A DNA stretch of 7,600 nucleotides from a virus (taxonomy: Duplodnaviria > Heunggongvirae > Uroviricota > Caudoviricetes): the IMG/VR virus record IMGVR_UViG_2651869755_000012. One strand, written 5' to 3'. Below the pieces are notes generated by a model that worked only from the letters and a program-made list of their open reading frames with translations, had not been told where the DNA came from and searched no databases. The translations under genes and the position numbers were made by a program. The stretch's first letter is position 1. The number at the start of each line of letters is the position of its first letter. This document shows, piece by piece, positions 783 through 7,600 of the stretch.

Positions 783-1469
783 ATGACCCCAATAAAAATA
801 TTTATGACTATTGCTGATTTCAAACGGCCTAAATTGGAGCTCCCAAACGGGGCAAACAAACTACTACTGCACTCTTGCTGTGCTCCATGTTCCGGTGAAG
901 TGATGGAGGCGCTTCAGGCCTCGGGAATCGACTACACCATCTTTTTCTACAACCCGAACATTCATCCTCAGAAAGAGTATTTAATTCGTAAGGATGAAAA
1001 TATTCGCTTTGCTGAACAACACGGCGTGCCGTTTATCGATGCTGATTACGACACCGACAACTGGTTTGAACGTGCCAAAGGAATGGAATGGGAGCCTGAG
1101 AGGGGGATCCGTTGTACCATGTGTTTTGACATGCGTTTTGAGCGGACAGCGTTGTACGCTGCTGAAAATGGTTTCAGTGTGATCAGCAGTTCACTGGGCA
1201 TTTCACGCTGGAAAAATATGCAGCAGGTTAACGAGTGTGGGCGGCGAGCTGTTGCGCATTATCCGGGTATGGTGTACTGGGATTATAACTGGCGCAAGCA
1301 GGGCGGCTCGTCCCGTATGATTGAAATCAGCAAGCGCGAAAAATTCTATCAGCAGGAATATTGTGGCTGTGTGTATTCTCTGCGCGATACCAATCTACAC
1401 CGCAAATCTCAGGGACGCCCTCTTATCAAAATTGGCCAACTCCACTACGGAAAAGAAGAGAAGGAGTGA
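783..1469 (+). CDS. queH: QueH-type epoxyqueuosine reductase (DUF208 family)
   Basis: Translation carries the Cys motifs I associate with DUF208/QueH: [11 protein letters not shown] (CCAPC at nt 876-890), CTMCFDMRF and YCGCVYSL. Length 228 aa fits the family. Start could alternatively be the ATG at 804; neither has a strong SD. Confidence 0.75.
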
Positions 1470-1930: not shown

Positions 1931-1951
1931 AACCCGCTTCGGCGGGTTTTT
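1931..1951 (+). terminator. Rho-independent terminator ending the hok transcript
   Basis: Hairpin CCCGC-TTCG-GCGGG (1933-1946) followed by TTTTT (1947-1951). Confidence 0.7.
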
Positions 1952-1962
1952 GCATTAGTCTG

Positions 1963-1992
1963 GTTGACAAAAATAGAAAAATGCGAAAATAT
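1963..1992 (+). promoter_or_regulatory. Putative promoter of the two-gene insert (consensus -35 TTGACA)
   Basis: Perfect TTGACA at 1963-1968; weak -10 candidate AAATAT at 1987-1992 (18-bp spacer) inside an A-rich tract; the first ATG of the module is at 2028. Confidence 0.4.
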
Positions 1993-2027
1993 GTGGTTTA
2001 CGAATTCTAAAAAAAGCGAAACTTGAA

Positions 2028-2678
2028 ATGAATGAAAATCAGTTAGCTCCTTGTTGGGAATTTCAACCTTATCTTGCTGAAAACTATGTTCGCCACTTGT
2101 TGGCGGAGATCGCTAACGTACTTGAGCAGCTGTACTATCATAAGCACGCATTAGACAGCAACTGGTCTGAAGGTGTAAGGGCTTATGATTGGGTCAGAAA
2201 TCATCTTATTCAAAATGAAGATGCAATTCCTGGCCTTGAGATGATTTCCAAGGGGTTGGACTATGTAGTTGCTTTAAATAAAGTTCCGCTACAATTTACC
2301 AAAGATTGCATTAATAACCCCAAAAAGAAACATCGTCTGCGTCGAAATAAAGTAGAGTATGAGCAGCTCTCATTGTTTGGTGATGTTGAGGCTGAGCAAG
2401 ATATTACATGGCGAGTCATAGCTGAGCCTTTTTTATCCGAAGAGGGCGATGGTGAATTAGAGTCCACACTGCCTCGTTGGGAGGTAGCTCTTGTTGGATT
2501 TAATACTTATGGTGCTCAGATTAGTATAGTTTCTCATCAATCTACAGCATCGATGCCGCTTATGCCTCTTGATTATAACACACTCCCTGACGAAGCGGAG
2601 ATTAATAAGGTGCCTCTTCGTCGGCGTACGAAGGATAAAGATTTGGATGTGAGCAGTGATGGAACATCAGGTGAATAA
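2028..2678 (+). CDS. Unknown-function protein (216 aa), first gene of a two-gene module with the downstream HTH-peptidase
   Basis: Long ORF in an AT-rich segment, ATG at 2028, stop TAA at 2676-2678 overlapping the next gene's start by 20 nt. Acidic protein with a basic patch (KKKHRLRRNK); no transmembrane segment or catalytic motif recognised. Confidence 0.6.
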   Translation: MNENQLAPCWEFQPYLAENYVRHLLAEIANVLEQLYYHKHALDSNWSEGVRAYDWVRNHLIQNEDAIPGLEMISKGLDYVVALNKVPLQFTKDCINNPKKKHRLRRNKVEYEQLSLFGDVEAEQDITWRVIAEPFLSEEGDGELESTLPRWEVALVGFNTYGAQISIVSHQSTASMPLMPLDYNTLPDEAEINKVPLRRRTKDKDLDVSSDGTSGE

Positions 2679-3762
2679 CTTCACTGAGTATCGGGGTGAT
2701 AAGCTCAAACTAGCGAGAATGGCTGTTGGGCTTTCTTGTGAAGAGTTAGCCGAAAAAATTGGCAAGACAAAGCAATTCGTTAGCAAACTGGAGAAGGGGT
2801 GCAGGCCATCGGAGCAATGTCTTGAGTTAATATCTTCAGCGCTTATGATTAAGTCCAGTTTTCTTTTTACTGAACGAAAATACGCTCTGGAAAGTGATGT
2901 CTGCCATTTTCGGAGTAAGAAGTCCAGGACTCAAACGCTGACTAATAGTGTATTGGCCAGGGCTGAGATTCTTAATATTATAATTTCTGCTGTTGAAGGT
3001 GAAATCGAATTTCCTGACGTTAACATACCGGAGCACCCAGGGGCTGAATTACTTACTCCGAATGATATTGAGCGAGTGGCAGAAGATTGTCGCCGTGCCT
3101 GGAATTTAGGTCTTGGCCCTATATCATCAATGGTTAAATTGGCGGAGAGTTTAGGGGTAATCGTTGCGCATGTTACGGGAGTCGATGATCGTGTTGATGC
3201 TTTTACTGTTCACAATAACAGGCCTGTTATCATCAGGAACAATGTTAAAAAAAGCATATGTAGATTTCGCTCTGATTTAGGTCATGAATTAGGGCATTTA
3301 GTAATGCATGAGGGCATAACGACAGGTGATAAACTTACGGAATCACAAGCCGATCACTTTTCGAGCGCCTTATTAGTTCCCAGGTTATCTTTCATTAAAG
3401 AATTTCCACGAATACGAGGTAAGCAATTCGACTGGAATGCTCTGGTTGAATTTAAACTTAGATGGAAAATCAGCCTTAAAATGTGTATTTATCGAGCCAG
3501 CGCATTAGGCTTATTGACCCAGGAACAGGCAAGAACTGGCTATATGCATCTTAATTCCAGAGGGTATACGAGAGTTGAACCTGGTGATGAACTTTTGCGC
3601 CCTGAAGAACCCGGCATGCTGGCCGAGGCGATTGAAATGCTGGATGATGCAACCTGGCTAAGAATTCTTATGAAAACTGGCTTGAGCCAAGATTTAATTC
3701 GTGAGTTGTTCTCCATCAACAGACCTATTACAAATCCAAGAAATATTTTCCAGATTGTTTGA
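2659..3762 (+). CDS. Fused XRE-family HTH / ImmA-IrrE (COG2856, M78-like) zinc metallopeptidase, 367 aa
   Basis: N-terminal XRE-type helix-turn-helix (LARMAVGLSCEELAEKIGKTKQFVSKLEKG) and a central HEXXH zinc site (HELGH at nt 3283-3297, within DLGHELGHLVMHEG), plus about 150 aa of C-terminal extension. ATG at 2659 (GTG at 2656 also possible); stop TGA 3760-3762. Confidence 0.8.
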   Translation: MEHQVNNFTEYRGDKLKLARMAVGLSCEELAEKIGKTKQFVSKLEKGCRPSEQCLELISSALMIKSSFLFTERKYALESDVCHFRSKKSRTQTLTNSVLARAEILNIIISAVEGEIEFPDVNIPEHPGAELLTPNDIERVAEDCRRAWNLGLGPISSMVKLAESLGVIVAHVTGVDDRVDAFTVHNNRPVIIRNNVKKSICRFRSDLGHELGHLVMHEGITTGDKLTESQADHFSSALLVPRLSFIKEFPRIRGKQFDWNALVEFKLRWKISLKMCIYRASALGLLTQEQARTGYMHLNSRGYTRVEPGDELLRPEEPGMLAEAIEMLDDATWLRILMKTGLSQDLIRELFSINRPITNPRNIFQIV

Positions 3763-3766
3763 GTAT

Positions 3767-3787
3767 ACCCGCTTCGGCGGGTTTTTT
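3767..3787 (+). terminator. Rho-independent terminator after the two-gene module (same hairpin as at 1932-1951)
   Basis: CCCGC-TTCG-GCGGG (3768-3781) followed by TTTTTT (3782-3787); the 20-mer ACCCGCTTCGGCGGGTTTTT is identical to 1932-1951. Confidence 0.7.
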
Positions 3788-6578: not shown

Positions 6579-6605
6579 AACCCGCTCAAATGTGCGGGTT
6601 TTTTG
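6579..6605 (+). terminator. Rho-independent terminator (tR'-like) downstream of the Q-like gene
   Basis: CCCGC (6581-6585), 8-nt loop, GCGGG (6594-6598), then TTTTTT (6599-6604). An AT-rich promoter-like stretch at 6532-6580 precedes it, with a TATAAA-like hexamer at 6575-6580 (promoter not confidently resolved). Confidence 0.6.
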
Positions 6606-6677
6606 CTTAACTCTGTGGACCTTTTTATCTGTAGTTGTAATATATGGATATTGTTACAATTTAGGTCGGTGAGCTTA

Positions 6678-7355
6678 ATGGAAGAACAGCACGGTAATTA
6701 CTTTATAAAACGAATTCAGTTGATTGGAAGAGGGGCATTTGGCTTTGTTGAACACGTTAAGGTTTACAACCTCAATAAAGGTGAATGCGGGGATTATGCT
6801 AGAAAGGTTTTAGCACCCGAAAAACCAGAGCTTTTGGCGCAAATAGAGCAGTTTAGAAGGCGTTTTAAAAGGGAGGTTGTGTATCAATCACATTGCGTAC
6901 ATAGCAATATTGTTCCTATTTATTTGTGCGATTTGTTTGTTGAGAATCCATGGTTCATTATGGATAAAGCAGAATGTGATCTTGAGCACGAAATAACGAA
7001 CAACCTTCTTACAACAGATCAAAAAATTTCAATAGTGAAAATGGTATTAGATGGTGTAGCTTACATCCATGCCAAAGGCTATTTACACAGAGATATAAAA
7101 CCCTTTAATGTTTTGCGATTTAGCGACGGAACATACAAGGTGTCTGATTTTGGTCTGGTAAAAGATACGAATCCCGAAGGGGATACCACTAAATTGACCG
7201 AGATCGGTACCCGTATGGGAAGTACAAGATATATGGCTCCCGAGATTTTATATAATGCAGAGTATTCAGTTAAGACTGATGTTTATGCTGTGGGACGGTT
7301 AATTGAAGACTTAAATTTAGATGATAAAAAAATAAAGCCTATCATAGCTAAGTGA
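6678..7355 (+). CDS. Eukaryotic-like Ser/Thr protein kinase (Hanks-type), probably C-terminally truncated by IS insertion
   Basis: Gly-rich loop IGRGAFG (6723-6743), catalytic loop HRDIKPFN (7086-7109), DFG (7146-7154) and APE (7236-7244). ATG 6678 follows GGTGAG at 6668-6673; the track's TTG 6603 start lies inside the terminator. Only about 35 aa follow APE, and the stop TGA 7353-7355 is the first 3 bases of the IS terminal repeat. Confidence 0.75.
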   Translation: MEEQHGNYFIKRIQLIGRGAFGFVEHVKVYNLNKGECGDYARKVLAPEKPELLAQIEQFRRRFKREVVYQSHCVHSNIVPIYLCDLFVENPWFIMDKAECDLEHEITNNLLTTDQKISIVKMVLDGVAYIHAKGYLHRDIKPFNVLRFSDGTYKVSDFGLVKDTNPEGDTTKLTEIGTRMGSTRYMAPEILYNAEYSVKTDVYAVGRLIEDLNLDDKKIKPIIAK

Positions 7356-7600
7356 ACCGCCCCGGGTTTCCTGGAGAGTATTTTATCTGTGAACTCAGGC
7401 TGCCAGATCATCGTTTCCGATGGAAGCATAATAAGCTTTTTCTGCTTCTGCCGGAGGAGTATGGCCCAGCCTTTCCAGCAATCGTCGATTGTTATACCAG
7501 TCCACCCACGTGAGTGTGGCCAGTTCCACTTCTGCACGGTTTTTCCAGCTCTTACGGTGTATTACCTCCGCTTTGTAAAGACCATTGATGCTCTCCGCCA
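7353..7600 (-). mobile_element. Terminal part of an IS3-family insertion sequence (IS629/IS1203-like), extends beyond the window
   Basis: Terminal inverted repeat begins TGAACCGCCCCGGGTTTCCTGGAGAG at 7353; the minus strand encodes the C-terminus of an IS3-family transposase. I recall both as IS629-like. Confidence 0.8.
7395..7600 (-). CDS. IS3-family transposase OrfB, C-terminal fragment (5' end outside the window)
   Basis: Minus-strand translation ...AESINGLYKAEVIHRKSWKNRAEVELATLTWVDWYNNRRLLERLGHTPPAEAEKAYYASIGNDDLAA, stop (complement of 7395-7397). WVDWYNNRRL...LGH is the conserved C-terminal motif of IS3-family (DDE) transposases. This is a different frame from the track ORF 7283..7537. 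Confidence 0.8.
   Translation of the reverse strand, partial: AESINGLYKAEVIHRKSWKNRAEVELATLTWVDWYNNRRLLERLGHTPPAEAEKAYYASIGNDDLAA

What the first reader, a model, noticed from the sequence alone, without database searches (positions are those of the whole stretch)
2659..3762. HTH-peptidase carries about 150 aa of C-terminal extension beyond the HEXXH core, possibly a sensor domain
HELGH lies near residue 210 of 367. The remaining region (KLTESQADHF ... TNPRNIFQIV) is longer than a minimal ImmA core would need. In IrrE-type proteins extra domains mediate signal sensing; here it could recognise a phage cue or the partner protein.
Basis: inference. Interest (0 to 1): 0.5.

Follow-up and report, generated by a model that had tools for sequence, protein, structure and literature searches.

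The report
Ordinary RmrA antitoxin with family-typical C-terminal tail
The gene encodes a standard antitoxin (RmrA type) of a known prophage-borne toxin-antitoxin and anti-phage module (RosmerTA); only about 85 of the 150 residues after its zinc-binding motif are extra, they occur in the whole family, and they look like a partner-docking tail rather than a sensor domain.

Summary
ORF 2659-3762 encodes 367 aa, HELGH sits at residues 209-213, and 154 residues follow it.

- **Identity:** the protein matches PADLOC RmrA over its full length (E=6e-105). The overlapping upstream ORF matches RmrT (E=5e-25). Together they form a RosmerTA-type module in an E. coli lambdoid prophage.
- **Standard part:** about 70 of the 154 residues complete the normal M78/IrrE fold (metal-ligand helix with E229, then an HTH-like three-helix subdomain). 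Pfam M78 ends at residue 282.
- **Extra part:** about 85 residues (284-368) sit where IrrE and CapP carry their GAF sensor domain. They are all-helical, acidic and not GAF. Homologues appear only at the C-terminus of HTH-M78 proteins.
- **Three pieces:** a helix plus invariant acidic loop that depends on the core, a small three-helix unit, and a disordered tail.
- **Unexpected point:** across the family the tail ends in a motif resembling the ClpX-binding XB peptide of SspB (RPALRVVK). Two related systems need ClpX or ClpP for toxin control, which suggests a ClpXP-adaptor role. This is inferred only, and the window's own tail is a weak copy.

Verdict: a known kind; modest interest.

The parts
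2028..2678 (+). rmrT, a toxin candidate of 216 aa with no known domain
   Evidence: PADLOC RmrT PDLC03929, E=4.6e-25, residues 7-209. PHROG 5786, E=8e-85. No Pfam or PDB relative. Overlaps rmrA by 20 nt.
2659..3762 (+). rmrA, an antitoxin/repressor candidate of 367 aa (368 from the GTG at 2656)
   Evidence: PADLOC RmrA PDLC03943, E=6.2e-105, residues 12-351. PHROG 2439, E=8e-123. RefSeq WP_000401168.1.
2689..2880 (+). N-terminal Xre-type HTH domain (residues 12-75)
2905..2913 (+). Invariant H84-F85-R86 in the HTH-to-peptidase linker
   Evidence: Invariant in 44 sequences. F85 and R86 are at least 90% conserved in 80 genome loci. pLDDT dips to 65 here. Function unknown.
2932..3381 (+). M78 zinc-peptidase domain proper (residues about 93-242), with HELGH at 3283-3297 and the third ligand E229 at 3340-3342
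3382..3504 (+). HTH-like three-helix subdomain shared with IrrE and CapP (residues 243-283); the Pfam M78 model ends here
   Evidence: The Pfam model ends at residue 282. The HMM alignment puts CapP 79-176 against profile positions 189-276. PprI domain limits are peptidase 19-135 and HTH 136-176 (PMC10904395). Model helices 243-249, 260-270, 274-283.
3505..3615 (+). C1: helix 289-301 plus conserved acidic loop (E308, D311, E317, P319), residues 284-320
   Evidence: Invariant residues. pLDDT above 90 in the full-length model but 52-64 when modelled alone. Still alignable to the verified RmrA of E. coli OLC-716 up to residue 309.
3616..3714 (+). C2: small three-helix unit (residues 321-353), variable in sequence
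   Evidence: Helices 321-328, 331-341, 345-352. pLDDT 76-90 even when modelled alone. Lowest conservation of the structured parts. Only a weak HTH-like sequence pattern.
3715..3759 (+). Disordered tail (residues 354-368) ending in the hydrophobic motif IFQIV-COOH
   Evidence: pLDDT 53. A hydrophobic end motif occurs in 107 of 121 family members against 49 +/- 5 in shuffles. The family consensus resembles the SspB XB peptide.
1961..2021 (+). Promoter region of the cassette: perfect -35 TTGACA and two 28-nt direct repeats 33 nt apart (candidate operators)
1931..1948 (+). Terminator-like hairpin upstream of the cassette
3767..3782 (+). Terminator-like hairpin directly after rmrA, with the same stem-loop sequence as at 1931-1948

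Best explanation
ORF 2659-3762 is the RmrA-type antitoxin/repressor of a RosmerTA-type toxin-antitoxin (anti-phage) module. The module is a self-contained cassette in an E. coli lambdoid prophage; the toxin gene rmrT (2028-2678) lies upstream and overlaps rmrA. RmrA consists of an Xre HTH (12-75), a linker, an M78 zinc peptidase with an intact HEXXH...E site (93-242), the HTH-like subdomain that IrrE and CapP also have (243-283), and a family-specific C-terminal extension of 85 aa (284-368). So about 70 of the 154 residues after HEXXH are ordinary M78 fold, and about 85 are extra. The extra part is neither a GAF-like sensor nor an independent mobile domain. It has three pieces: a helix plus invariant acidic loop that needs the peptidase core to fold, a small three-helix unit, and a flexible tail ending in a conserved hydrophobic motif. 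Most likely mechanism (inferred, not shown): the HTH represses the operon. The peptidase core and C-terminal extension hold or process RmrT. The tail, which in many relatives reads [RK]-P-x-L-[RKQ]-[LIV]-V-K like the ClpX-binding XB peptide of SspB, tethers the complex to ClpX so that ClpXP keeps the toxin low. Phage infection would disturb this and free RmrT. The extension is therefore best read as a partner-docking module, not a ligand sensor.
For: Shown: (1) Full-length RmrA and RmrT profile matches and PHROG matches. (2) HTH_3 plus Peptidase_M78, with the M78 model ending at residue 282. (3) Invariant H210, E211, H214, E229, and further invariants out to E317. (4) A confident model: pLDDT 88, pTM 0.86. 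(5) Only about 150-170 residues superpose on CapP, IrrE and PprI. (6) The CapP sequence alignment ends at about residue 277, and PprI domain limits come from PMC10904395. (7) The capP profile match stops before its GAF part. (8) Modelled alone, residues 284-320 drop to pLDDT 52-64 while 321-353 stay at 76-90. (9) The C-terminal profile finds 318 cluster representatives among 1.84 billion. (10) 60 of 80 genome loci carry the same RmrT family directly upstream. (11) The verified RmrA of E. coli OLC-716 is 29% identical over residues 12-309 while its toxin is unrelated. For the tail: the end motif is enriched. An XB-like score of at least 15 occurs in 32 of 121 tails, against 0.5 of 121 internal windows and 4 of 885 other ORF ends. 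The SspB XB peptide is RGGRPALRVVK. RipB antitoxin action depends on clpX. A Vmi470-like prophage TA makes clpP essential. SocA is a precedent for an antitoxin acting as a ClpXP adaptor.
Against: No experiment or complex model addresses this protein. The window's own tail (PRNIFQIV-COOH) is a weak XB-like copy lacking the terminal Lys. The RmrA sequences are related, so the enrichment counts are not independent events. The XB comparison was made after the motif had been seen. I could not confirm that the ClpX/ClpP-dependent systems (RipAB; E. coli E101 / Vmi480-470) carry the same tail or the same toxin family. Members from Gram-positive bacteria and cyanobacteria have a different end motif (NV[VI][SP]L-like).
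Confidence: 0.7

Rival explanations
1. The C-terminal region is a sensor domain that recognises a phage cue, by analogy with the GAF-like domains of IrrE/PprI and CapP, which bind single-stranded DNA and switch on the peptidase.
For: It sits at the same place in the chain as the GAF domain of IrrE and CapP. The defence trigger of Rosmer systems is unknown. The loop residues E308, D311 and E317 are invariant, which suggests a specific binding site.
Against: It is all-helical with no GAF similarity. It is acidic, which does not suit ssDNA binding. Residues 284-320 are not autonomous. It has no relatives in Pfam or the PDB and never occurs in another protein context.
Confidence: 0.15
2. The C-terminal region is the toxin-binding, neutralising part of a classical type II antitoxin: DNA-binding N-terminus and toxin-binding C-terminus, with the protein's own degradation releasing the toxin.
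For: This is the general type II architecture (established knowledge). The three-helix unit 321-353 is the most variable structured segment. Sequence similarity to the verified RmrA, which pairs with an unrelated toxin, is lost after residue 309.
Against: Residues 321-353 also diverge among RmrA proteins paired with the same RmrT family. The end motif is conserved regardless of toxin family. In two related systems, loss of ClpX or ClpP activates the toxin rather than protecting the cell, which is the opposite of the labile-antitoxin model. AlphaFold could not predict a Rosmer TA complex in Ernits et al.. This reading is compatible with the best explanation for residues 284-353.
Confidence: 0.3
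3. Nothing is extra: all 154 residues after HEXXH are just the normal helical part of the M78 fold.
For: Residues 215-283 are covered by the Pfam M78 model and by the CapP alignment. Residues 284-320 need the core to be modelled confidently.
Against: The Pfam M78 and capP profiles end at residues 282-284. Only 150-170 residues superpose on CapP and IrrE. Residues 321-353 fold confidently on their own.
Confidence: 0.08

Closest known systems
RosmerTA (RmrT/RmrA), Millman et al. 2022; verified system from E. coli OLC-716
   Same: Toxin gene first, followed by an antitoxin of about 370 aa with an Xre HTH and an M78 Zn-peptidase. Full-length PADLOC RmrA match. 29% identity over residues 12-309 to the verified RmrA. 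The same kind of C-terminal end motif (...SHLRLVK versus ...NIFQIV).
   Different: The toxin is unrelated in sequence to the verified RmrT. The last 60 residues or so do not align. This particular pair has not been tested experimentally.
Vmi480/Vmi470 (Vibrio mimicus) and the E. coli E101 prophage TA (Luo 2015; Rousset 2020/2021)
   Same: A toxin of 198 aa sits upstream of a 362-aa antitoxin with an HTH and a Zn-peptidase. Toxicity and neutralisation were shown in E. coli. The E101 relative makes clpP essential.
   Different: The sequences could not be retrieved, so membership of the same RmrT/RmrA subfamily rests on size and architecture only.
RipAB (Spr1630/Spr1629), Streptococcus pneumoniae
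   Same: A Rosmer-family antitoxin. The NCBIfam spr1629 model aligns over residues 12-356. Antitoxin action depends on ClpX.
   Different: The score of 156 is below the equivalog cut-off of 335. The RipA toxin targets DnaN, whereas the target of the RmrT here is unknown.
IrrE/PprI-DdrO, CapP-CapH and ImmA-ImmR peptidase/repressor pairs
   Different: Here the HTH is fused to the peptidase instead of being a separate substrate protein. The GAF-like sensor domain of IrrE and CapP is replaced by an unrelated 85-aa helical extension. There is no evidence of ssDNA sensing.
SspB (ClpX adaptor) and SocA (type VI antitoxin, ClpXP adaptor)
   Same: A flexible linker ends in a short C-terminal motif. The SspB XB peptide is RPALRVVK-COOH; RmrA relatives end in, for example, RPALQLVK-COOH. 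SocA shows that an antitoxin can act by delivering its toxin to ClpXP.
   Different: There is no homology of the folded parts. ClpX binding has not been tested. The window's own motif is degenerate.

Membership tests
RosmerTA RmrA (PADLOC/DefenseFinder) | Full-length match to an RmrA profile | tested here: met
   PDLC03943, E=6.2e-105, residues 12-351 against profile positions 2-342 of 370. Thirteen further RmrA profiles also match.
RosmerTA RmrA (PADLOC/DefenseFinder) | Adjacent RmrT gene in the same operon | tested here: met
   ORF 2028-2678 matches RmrT PDLC03929, E=4.6e-25. Same strand, 20-nt overlap. The pairing is conserved in 60 of 80 loci.
RosmerTA RmrA (PADLOC/DefenseFinder) | Toxicity of RmrT, neutralisation by RmrA, protection against phage | not testable with these tools
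   Shown only for other members.
Peptidase M78 (ImmA/IrrE, PF06114) | Pfam gathering score and the HEXXH plus downstream Glu metal site | tested here: met
   42.6 bits against a cut-off of 22. H210, E211, H214 and E229 are invariant. Fold matches to CapP and IrrE.
ImmA/IrrE/CapP two-protein switch | A separate Xre-family repressor encoded next to the peptidase and cleaved by it | tested here: not met
   The HTH is fused in cis. The neighbours are RmrT and small proteins of unknown function.
IrrE/CapP three-domain architecture | C-terminal GAF-like sensor domain | tested here: not met
   The capP profile match ends at position 153 of 242. The C-terminal 85 aa are all-helical. Only 150-170 residues superpose.
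NCBIfam NF052239 spr1629 family repressor/antitoxin (equivalog) | Score above the curated cut-off | tested here: not met
   155.9 bits against a cut-off of 335, although the alignment spans residues 12-356. A related subfamily, not an equivalog.
SspB-type ClpX tethering (XB motif) | XB-like motif at the extreme C-terminus after a flexible linker | tested here: inconclusive
   Clear in 32 of 121 relatives (score at least 15), against 4 of 885 control ORF ends. The window protein has only R-x-x-F-Q-I-V-COOH. The tail is disordered in the model.
SspB-type ClpX tethering (XB motif) | Physical binding to the ClpX N-domain; stimulation of substrate degradation | not testable with these tools
   Only indirect genetics from other Rosmer-type systems.

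The most novel reading that the evidence does not exclude
RmrA-type antitoxins are ClpXP adaptors. Their conserved C-terminal tail ([RK]-P-x-L-[RKQ]-[LIV]-V-K after a flexible linker) would be an SspB-like XB peptide that tethers the antitoxin-toxin complex to the ClpX N-domain. The toxin would then be neutralised by continuous degradation, possibly after nicking by the M78 site. That would make Rosmer systems work like the type VI SocAB system rather than like classical type II TAs, and it would explain why ClpX or ClpP becomes essential when such modules are present.
Probability: 0.3. Interest if true: 0.65.

Novelty: already known. Interest (0 to 1): 0.3.

Why it matters
As submitted, the finding describes the normal architecture of a catalogued defence/TA family, so it adds little. 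The value lies in the dissection. It shows that the RmrA extension is not an IrrE-like sensor. It separates a core-dependent acidic loop, a variable three-helix unit and a conserved terminal peptide. It also offers a concrete, cheap test (tail deletion, clpX background, XB-peptide competition) of how Rosmer antitoxins neutralise their very diverse toxins. That mechanism is still open in the literature I could search.

Tried and rejected
- **PDB sequence search with the C-terminal profile:** only designed helical-repeat proteins, individually insignificant.
- **PDB relative 9VZY_A (393 aa, HTH plus M78, same layout):** found by sequence, but no paper mentions it. It did not appear in the listed fold-search hits, and its C-terminus does not match the C-terminal profile.
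- **RmrT toxin:** no Pfam, NCBIfam or PDB relative, even with a 26-sequence profile. The large profile search returned only close enterobacterial relatives.
- **Do the 20 loci with a different upstream ORF carry distant RmrT homologues?** hhalign gave probabilities of 9-13%, which is inconclusive.
- **Does divergence of the C-terminal part track toxin family?** It does not do so cleanly, so I dropped this as a test of toxin binding.
- **Identifying the clpP-dependent E. coli E101 module among E. coli relatives:** the 56%-identical E. coli variant carries other accessions. The link remains by architecture only.
- **Phage database, near-identity DNA search:** no match.

Full report
**1. Observation**

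The window carries an ORF at 2656(GTG)/2659(ATG)-3762 on the + strand. RefSeq annotates the identical gene in E. coli 042 from the ATG, giving 367 aa (WP_000401168.1, 'helix-turn-helix domain-containing protein'). HELGH is encoded at 3283-3297. That is residues 210-214 in the 368-aa numbering used here, and 154 residues follow it. The facts in the finding are correct.

**2. What the gene is**

- Pfam finds HTH_3 (residues 17-63) and Peptidase_M78 (residues 177-282, reaching the last position of the model).
- PADLOC gives a full-length match to RmrA (PDLC03943, E=6e-105, residues 12-351). Thirteen more RmrA profiles also match.
- The upstream ORF 2028-2678 overlaps rmrA by 20 nt and matches RmrT (E=4.6e-25).
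- PHROGs holds both proteins as phage families: phrog_2439 (full length) and phrog_5786.
- The NCBIfam model 'spr1629 family repressor/antitoxin' aligns over residues 12-356 but scores below its equivalog cut-off.
- RosmerTA was defined by Millman et al. 2022 as a defence system with a Zn-peptidase antitoxin and diverse toxins.
- The RmrA they verified (E. coli OLC-716, 370 aa) is 29% identical to this protein over residues 12-309. The two toxins are unrelated.

**3. Genomic context**

- The pair is 100% identical in many E. coli chromosomes. 237 of 5,426 complete genomes carry it.
- It lies in the late-early region of a lambdoid prophage, between hokD and the DUF968, RusA and Q genes.
- It forms a discrete low-GC cassette. 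It has a perfect -35 hexamer, two 28-nt direct repeats upstream, and the same terminator hairpin on both sides.

**4. Anatomy of the region after HEXXH**

A 44-sequence alignment shows invariant H210, E211, H214 and E229. E229 lies in the TExQA..F...L.P motif and is the third metal ligand. Invariant positions continue well past this: W260, K267, R280, A281, L284, E308, D311, E317.

The AlphaFold2 model is confident (pLDDT 88, pTM 0.86). After the HEXXH helix it predicts only helices: 226-240, 243-249, 260-270, 274-283, 289-301, 321-328, 331-341 and 345-352. The last eight residues are disordered.

- A profile search of PDB sequences aligns CapP residues 79-176 with profile positions 189-276.
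- Published domain limits for PprI are peptidase 19-135 (HEXXH at 92-96), HTH-like domain 136-176 and GAF-like domain 177-277 (PMC10904395). CapP has the same three domains.

Transferred to this protein, the peptidase proper is about 93-242. The IrrE-type HTH-like subdomain is 243-283, exactly where the Pfam M78 model and the PADLOC capP match (profile position 153 of 242) end. Residues 284-368 stand where IrrE and CapP have their GAF sensor.

So about 70 of the 154 residues are ordinary M78 fold, and about 85 are additional.

**5. Nature of the additional 85 residues**

- They are all-helical and acidic (pI 5.1 and 4.3 for the two structured parts). They are therefore not GAF-like.
- Modelled alone with their own alignment, residues 284-320 fall to pLDDT 52-64, against more than 90 in the full-length context. 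Residues 321-353 remain at 76-90.
  - The first piece (helix plus acidic loop with E308, D311, E317, P319) therefore appears to depend on the peptidase core.
  - The second piece is a small autonomous three-helix unit.
- A profile of the 85 residues, searched against 1.84 billion cluster representatives, gave only 318 hits. A further 93 were N-terminally shorter proteins that stay co-linear with the same family and are most simply read as gene fragments. Two were spurious.
- The extension is therefore a family-specific appendage, not a shuffled domain. It is typical of the whole RmrA family and not a peculiarity of this gene.

**6. Related loci**

Eighty genome loci from Proteobacteria, Actinobacteria, Firmicutes, Cyanobacteria and others were fetched.

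- Nearly all have an ORF of about 200-290 aa abutting the RmrA start.
- In 60 of 80 loci this ORF belongs to the same RmrT family as in the window.
- The other upstream ORFs form at least two further sequence clusters. Their relation to RmrT is unresolved.
- Homology of RmrA to the window protein typically extends to residue 329 or so, even in distant phyla. Beyond that it diverges, also among proteins paired with the same toxin family.

**7. The tail**

After a linker that varies in length and is often rich in proline, most family members end in a short hydrophobic motif.

- The motif is present in 107 of 121 distinct sequences. The window of the same length just upstream has it in 46, and shuffles give 49 +/- 5.
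- In gamma- and betaproteobacterial members it reads [RK]-P-x-L-[RKQY]-[LIV]-V-[K]. Examples are RPALQLVK-COOH (locus L043) and SHLRLVK-COOH in the verified OLC-716 RmrA.
- This closely resembles the XB peptide of the ClpX adaptor SspB, RGGRPALRVVK-COOH. XB binds the ClpX N-domain from the end of a flexible leash (PMC3983244, PMC8808172).
- An ungapped BLOSUM62 score of at least 15 to RPALRVVK occurs in 32 of 121 RmrA tails. It occurs in 0.5 of 121 random internal windows and 4 of 885 C-termini of other ORFs from the same loci. For a score of at least 20 the counts are 18 of 121 against 0 of 885.

Caveats:
- The sequences are related, so the counts are not independent.
- The comparison was made after the motif had been seen.
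- The window's own tail (PRNIFQIV-COOH) is only a weak version.
- Non-proteobacterial members carry a different variant (NV[VI][SP]L-like).

**8. How it probably works**

Shown: the domain make-up, an intact catalytic site, a conserved operon with a toxin candidate, and the anatomy of the extension.

From the literature:
- Rosmer toxins are diverse, and rmrA could not be deleted, possibly because of toxicity.
- In S. pneumoniae the Rosmer antitoxin RipB works only if clpX is intact.
- In E. coli E101 a prophage TA related to Vmi480/Vmi470 (a 198-aa toxin and a 362-aa HTH-Zn-peptidase antitoxin) makes clpP essential.
- That genetic pattern is the opposite of a labile antitoxin degraded by ClpXP. 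It matches the type VI SocAB system, in which the antitoxin SocA is a ClpXP adaptor for its toxin.

Inferred: the HTH autoregulates, possibly through the repeats at 1961-2021. The core plus residues 284-353 engage RmrT. The tail tethers ClpX so that the toxin is kept low. Infection breaks this balance.

I rate the identity and anatomy as well supported, and the adaptor idea at about 0.3.

The classical 'toxin-binding C-terminus' reading is compatible with this for residues 284-353. The 'sensor domain' reading has no positive evidence but is not excluded.

**9. Comparison and novelty**

This is a member of the known RosmerTA / Xre-COG2856 class. It differs from ImmA, IrrE and CapP in two ways: the HTH is fused, and the GAF domain is replaced by the helical extension. 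The novelty rating is 'already known'. The only potentially new element is the XB-like tail and the adaptor hypothesis it suggests. The word 'adaptor' does not occur in the RipAB preprint.

Noticed in passing
window 3715-3759, and the C-termini of RmrA homologues in loci L006-L048: The extreme C-terminus of the RmrA family carries a conserved motif ([RK]-P-x-L-[RKQ]-[LIV]-V-K, for example RPALQLVK in L043) after a variable linker. It closely resembles the ClpX-binding XB peptide of SspB (RPALRVVK). The window's copy is weak (PRNIFQIV). Gram-positive and cyanobacterial members have a different variant (NV[VI][SP]L-like).
   Followed up: partly
window 2905-2913: H84-F85-R86 in the linker between the HTH and the peptidase is invariant across 44 homologues (F85 and R86 at least 90% conserved in 80 loci), although the linker is the least confident part of the model. 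It could be a docking or self-cleavage site. Not examined further.
   Followed up: no
window 1931-1948 and 3767-3782: The rmrTA cassette is bracketed by two terminator-like hairpins with the same stem-loop sequence (ACCCGCTTCGGCGGGT followed by a T run). Its GC content (about 0.40-0.44) is lower than that of the DNA downstream (about 0.55). This looks like an independently acquired moron. In a related prophage (L082) the order of hokD and the rmrTA-like pair is reversed.
   Followed up: partly
window 1961-2021: Upstream of rmrT there is a perfect -35 hexamer (TTGACA, 1964-1969) and two 28-nt direct repeats (TGGTTGACAAAAATAGAAAAATGCGAAA and TGGTTTACGAATTCTAAAAAAAGCGAAA) spaced 33 nt apart. These are candidate operator sites for the RmrA HTH.
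   Followed up: no
window 6603-7355 and 7395-7598: A Ser/Thr protein kinase ORF of 250 aa lies just after the Q antiterminator gene. It matches PADLOC PD-T4-6 and mad6-like profiles, and PHROG 2361 only at profile positions 2-212 of 415. It is followed on the opposite strand by the C-terminal end of an IS transposase (rve_3). The kinase, a second defence-type gene in this prophage, may be truncated by the IS.
   Followed up: partly
window 783-1469: A QueH-type epoxyqueuosine reductase gene (PF02677, E=1e-65) sits inside the prophage between the DUF977 gene and hokD. This is an unusual metabolic passenger, and it is absent at this position in the E. coli 042 prophage.
   Followed up: no
E. coli FDAARGOS_1249, NZ_CP069459.1 1256745-1259545 (hit H1): In one complete genome the otherwise identical rmrTA module is split into two pieces by an IS5 insertion. 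Which of the two genes is interrupted was not checked. It would be informative, because losing the antitoxin alone should be lethal.
   Followed up: no
PDB 9VZY chain A: A solved but apparently unpublished structure of a 393-aa protein with an HTH and an M78 domain ('HTH cro/C1-type domain-containing protein') has the same overall layout, including about 78 residues after the M78 region. It did not appear in the listed hits of either fold search, and no paper in the library mentions it.
   Followed up: partly
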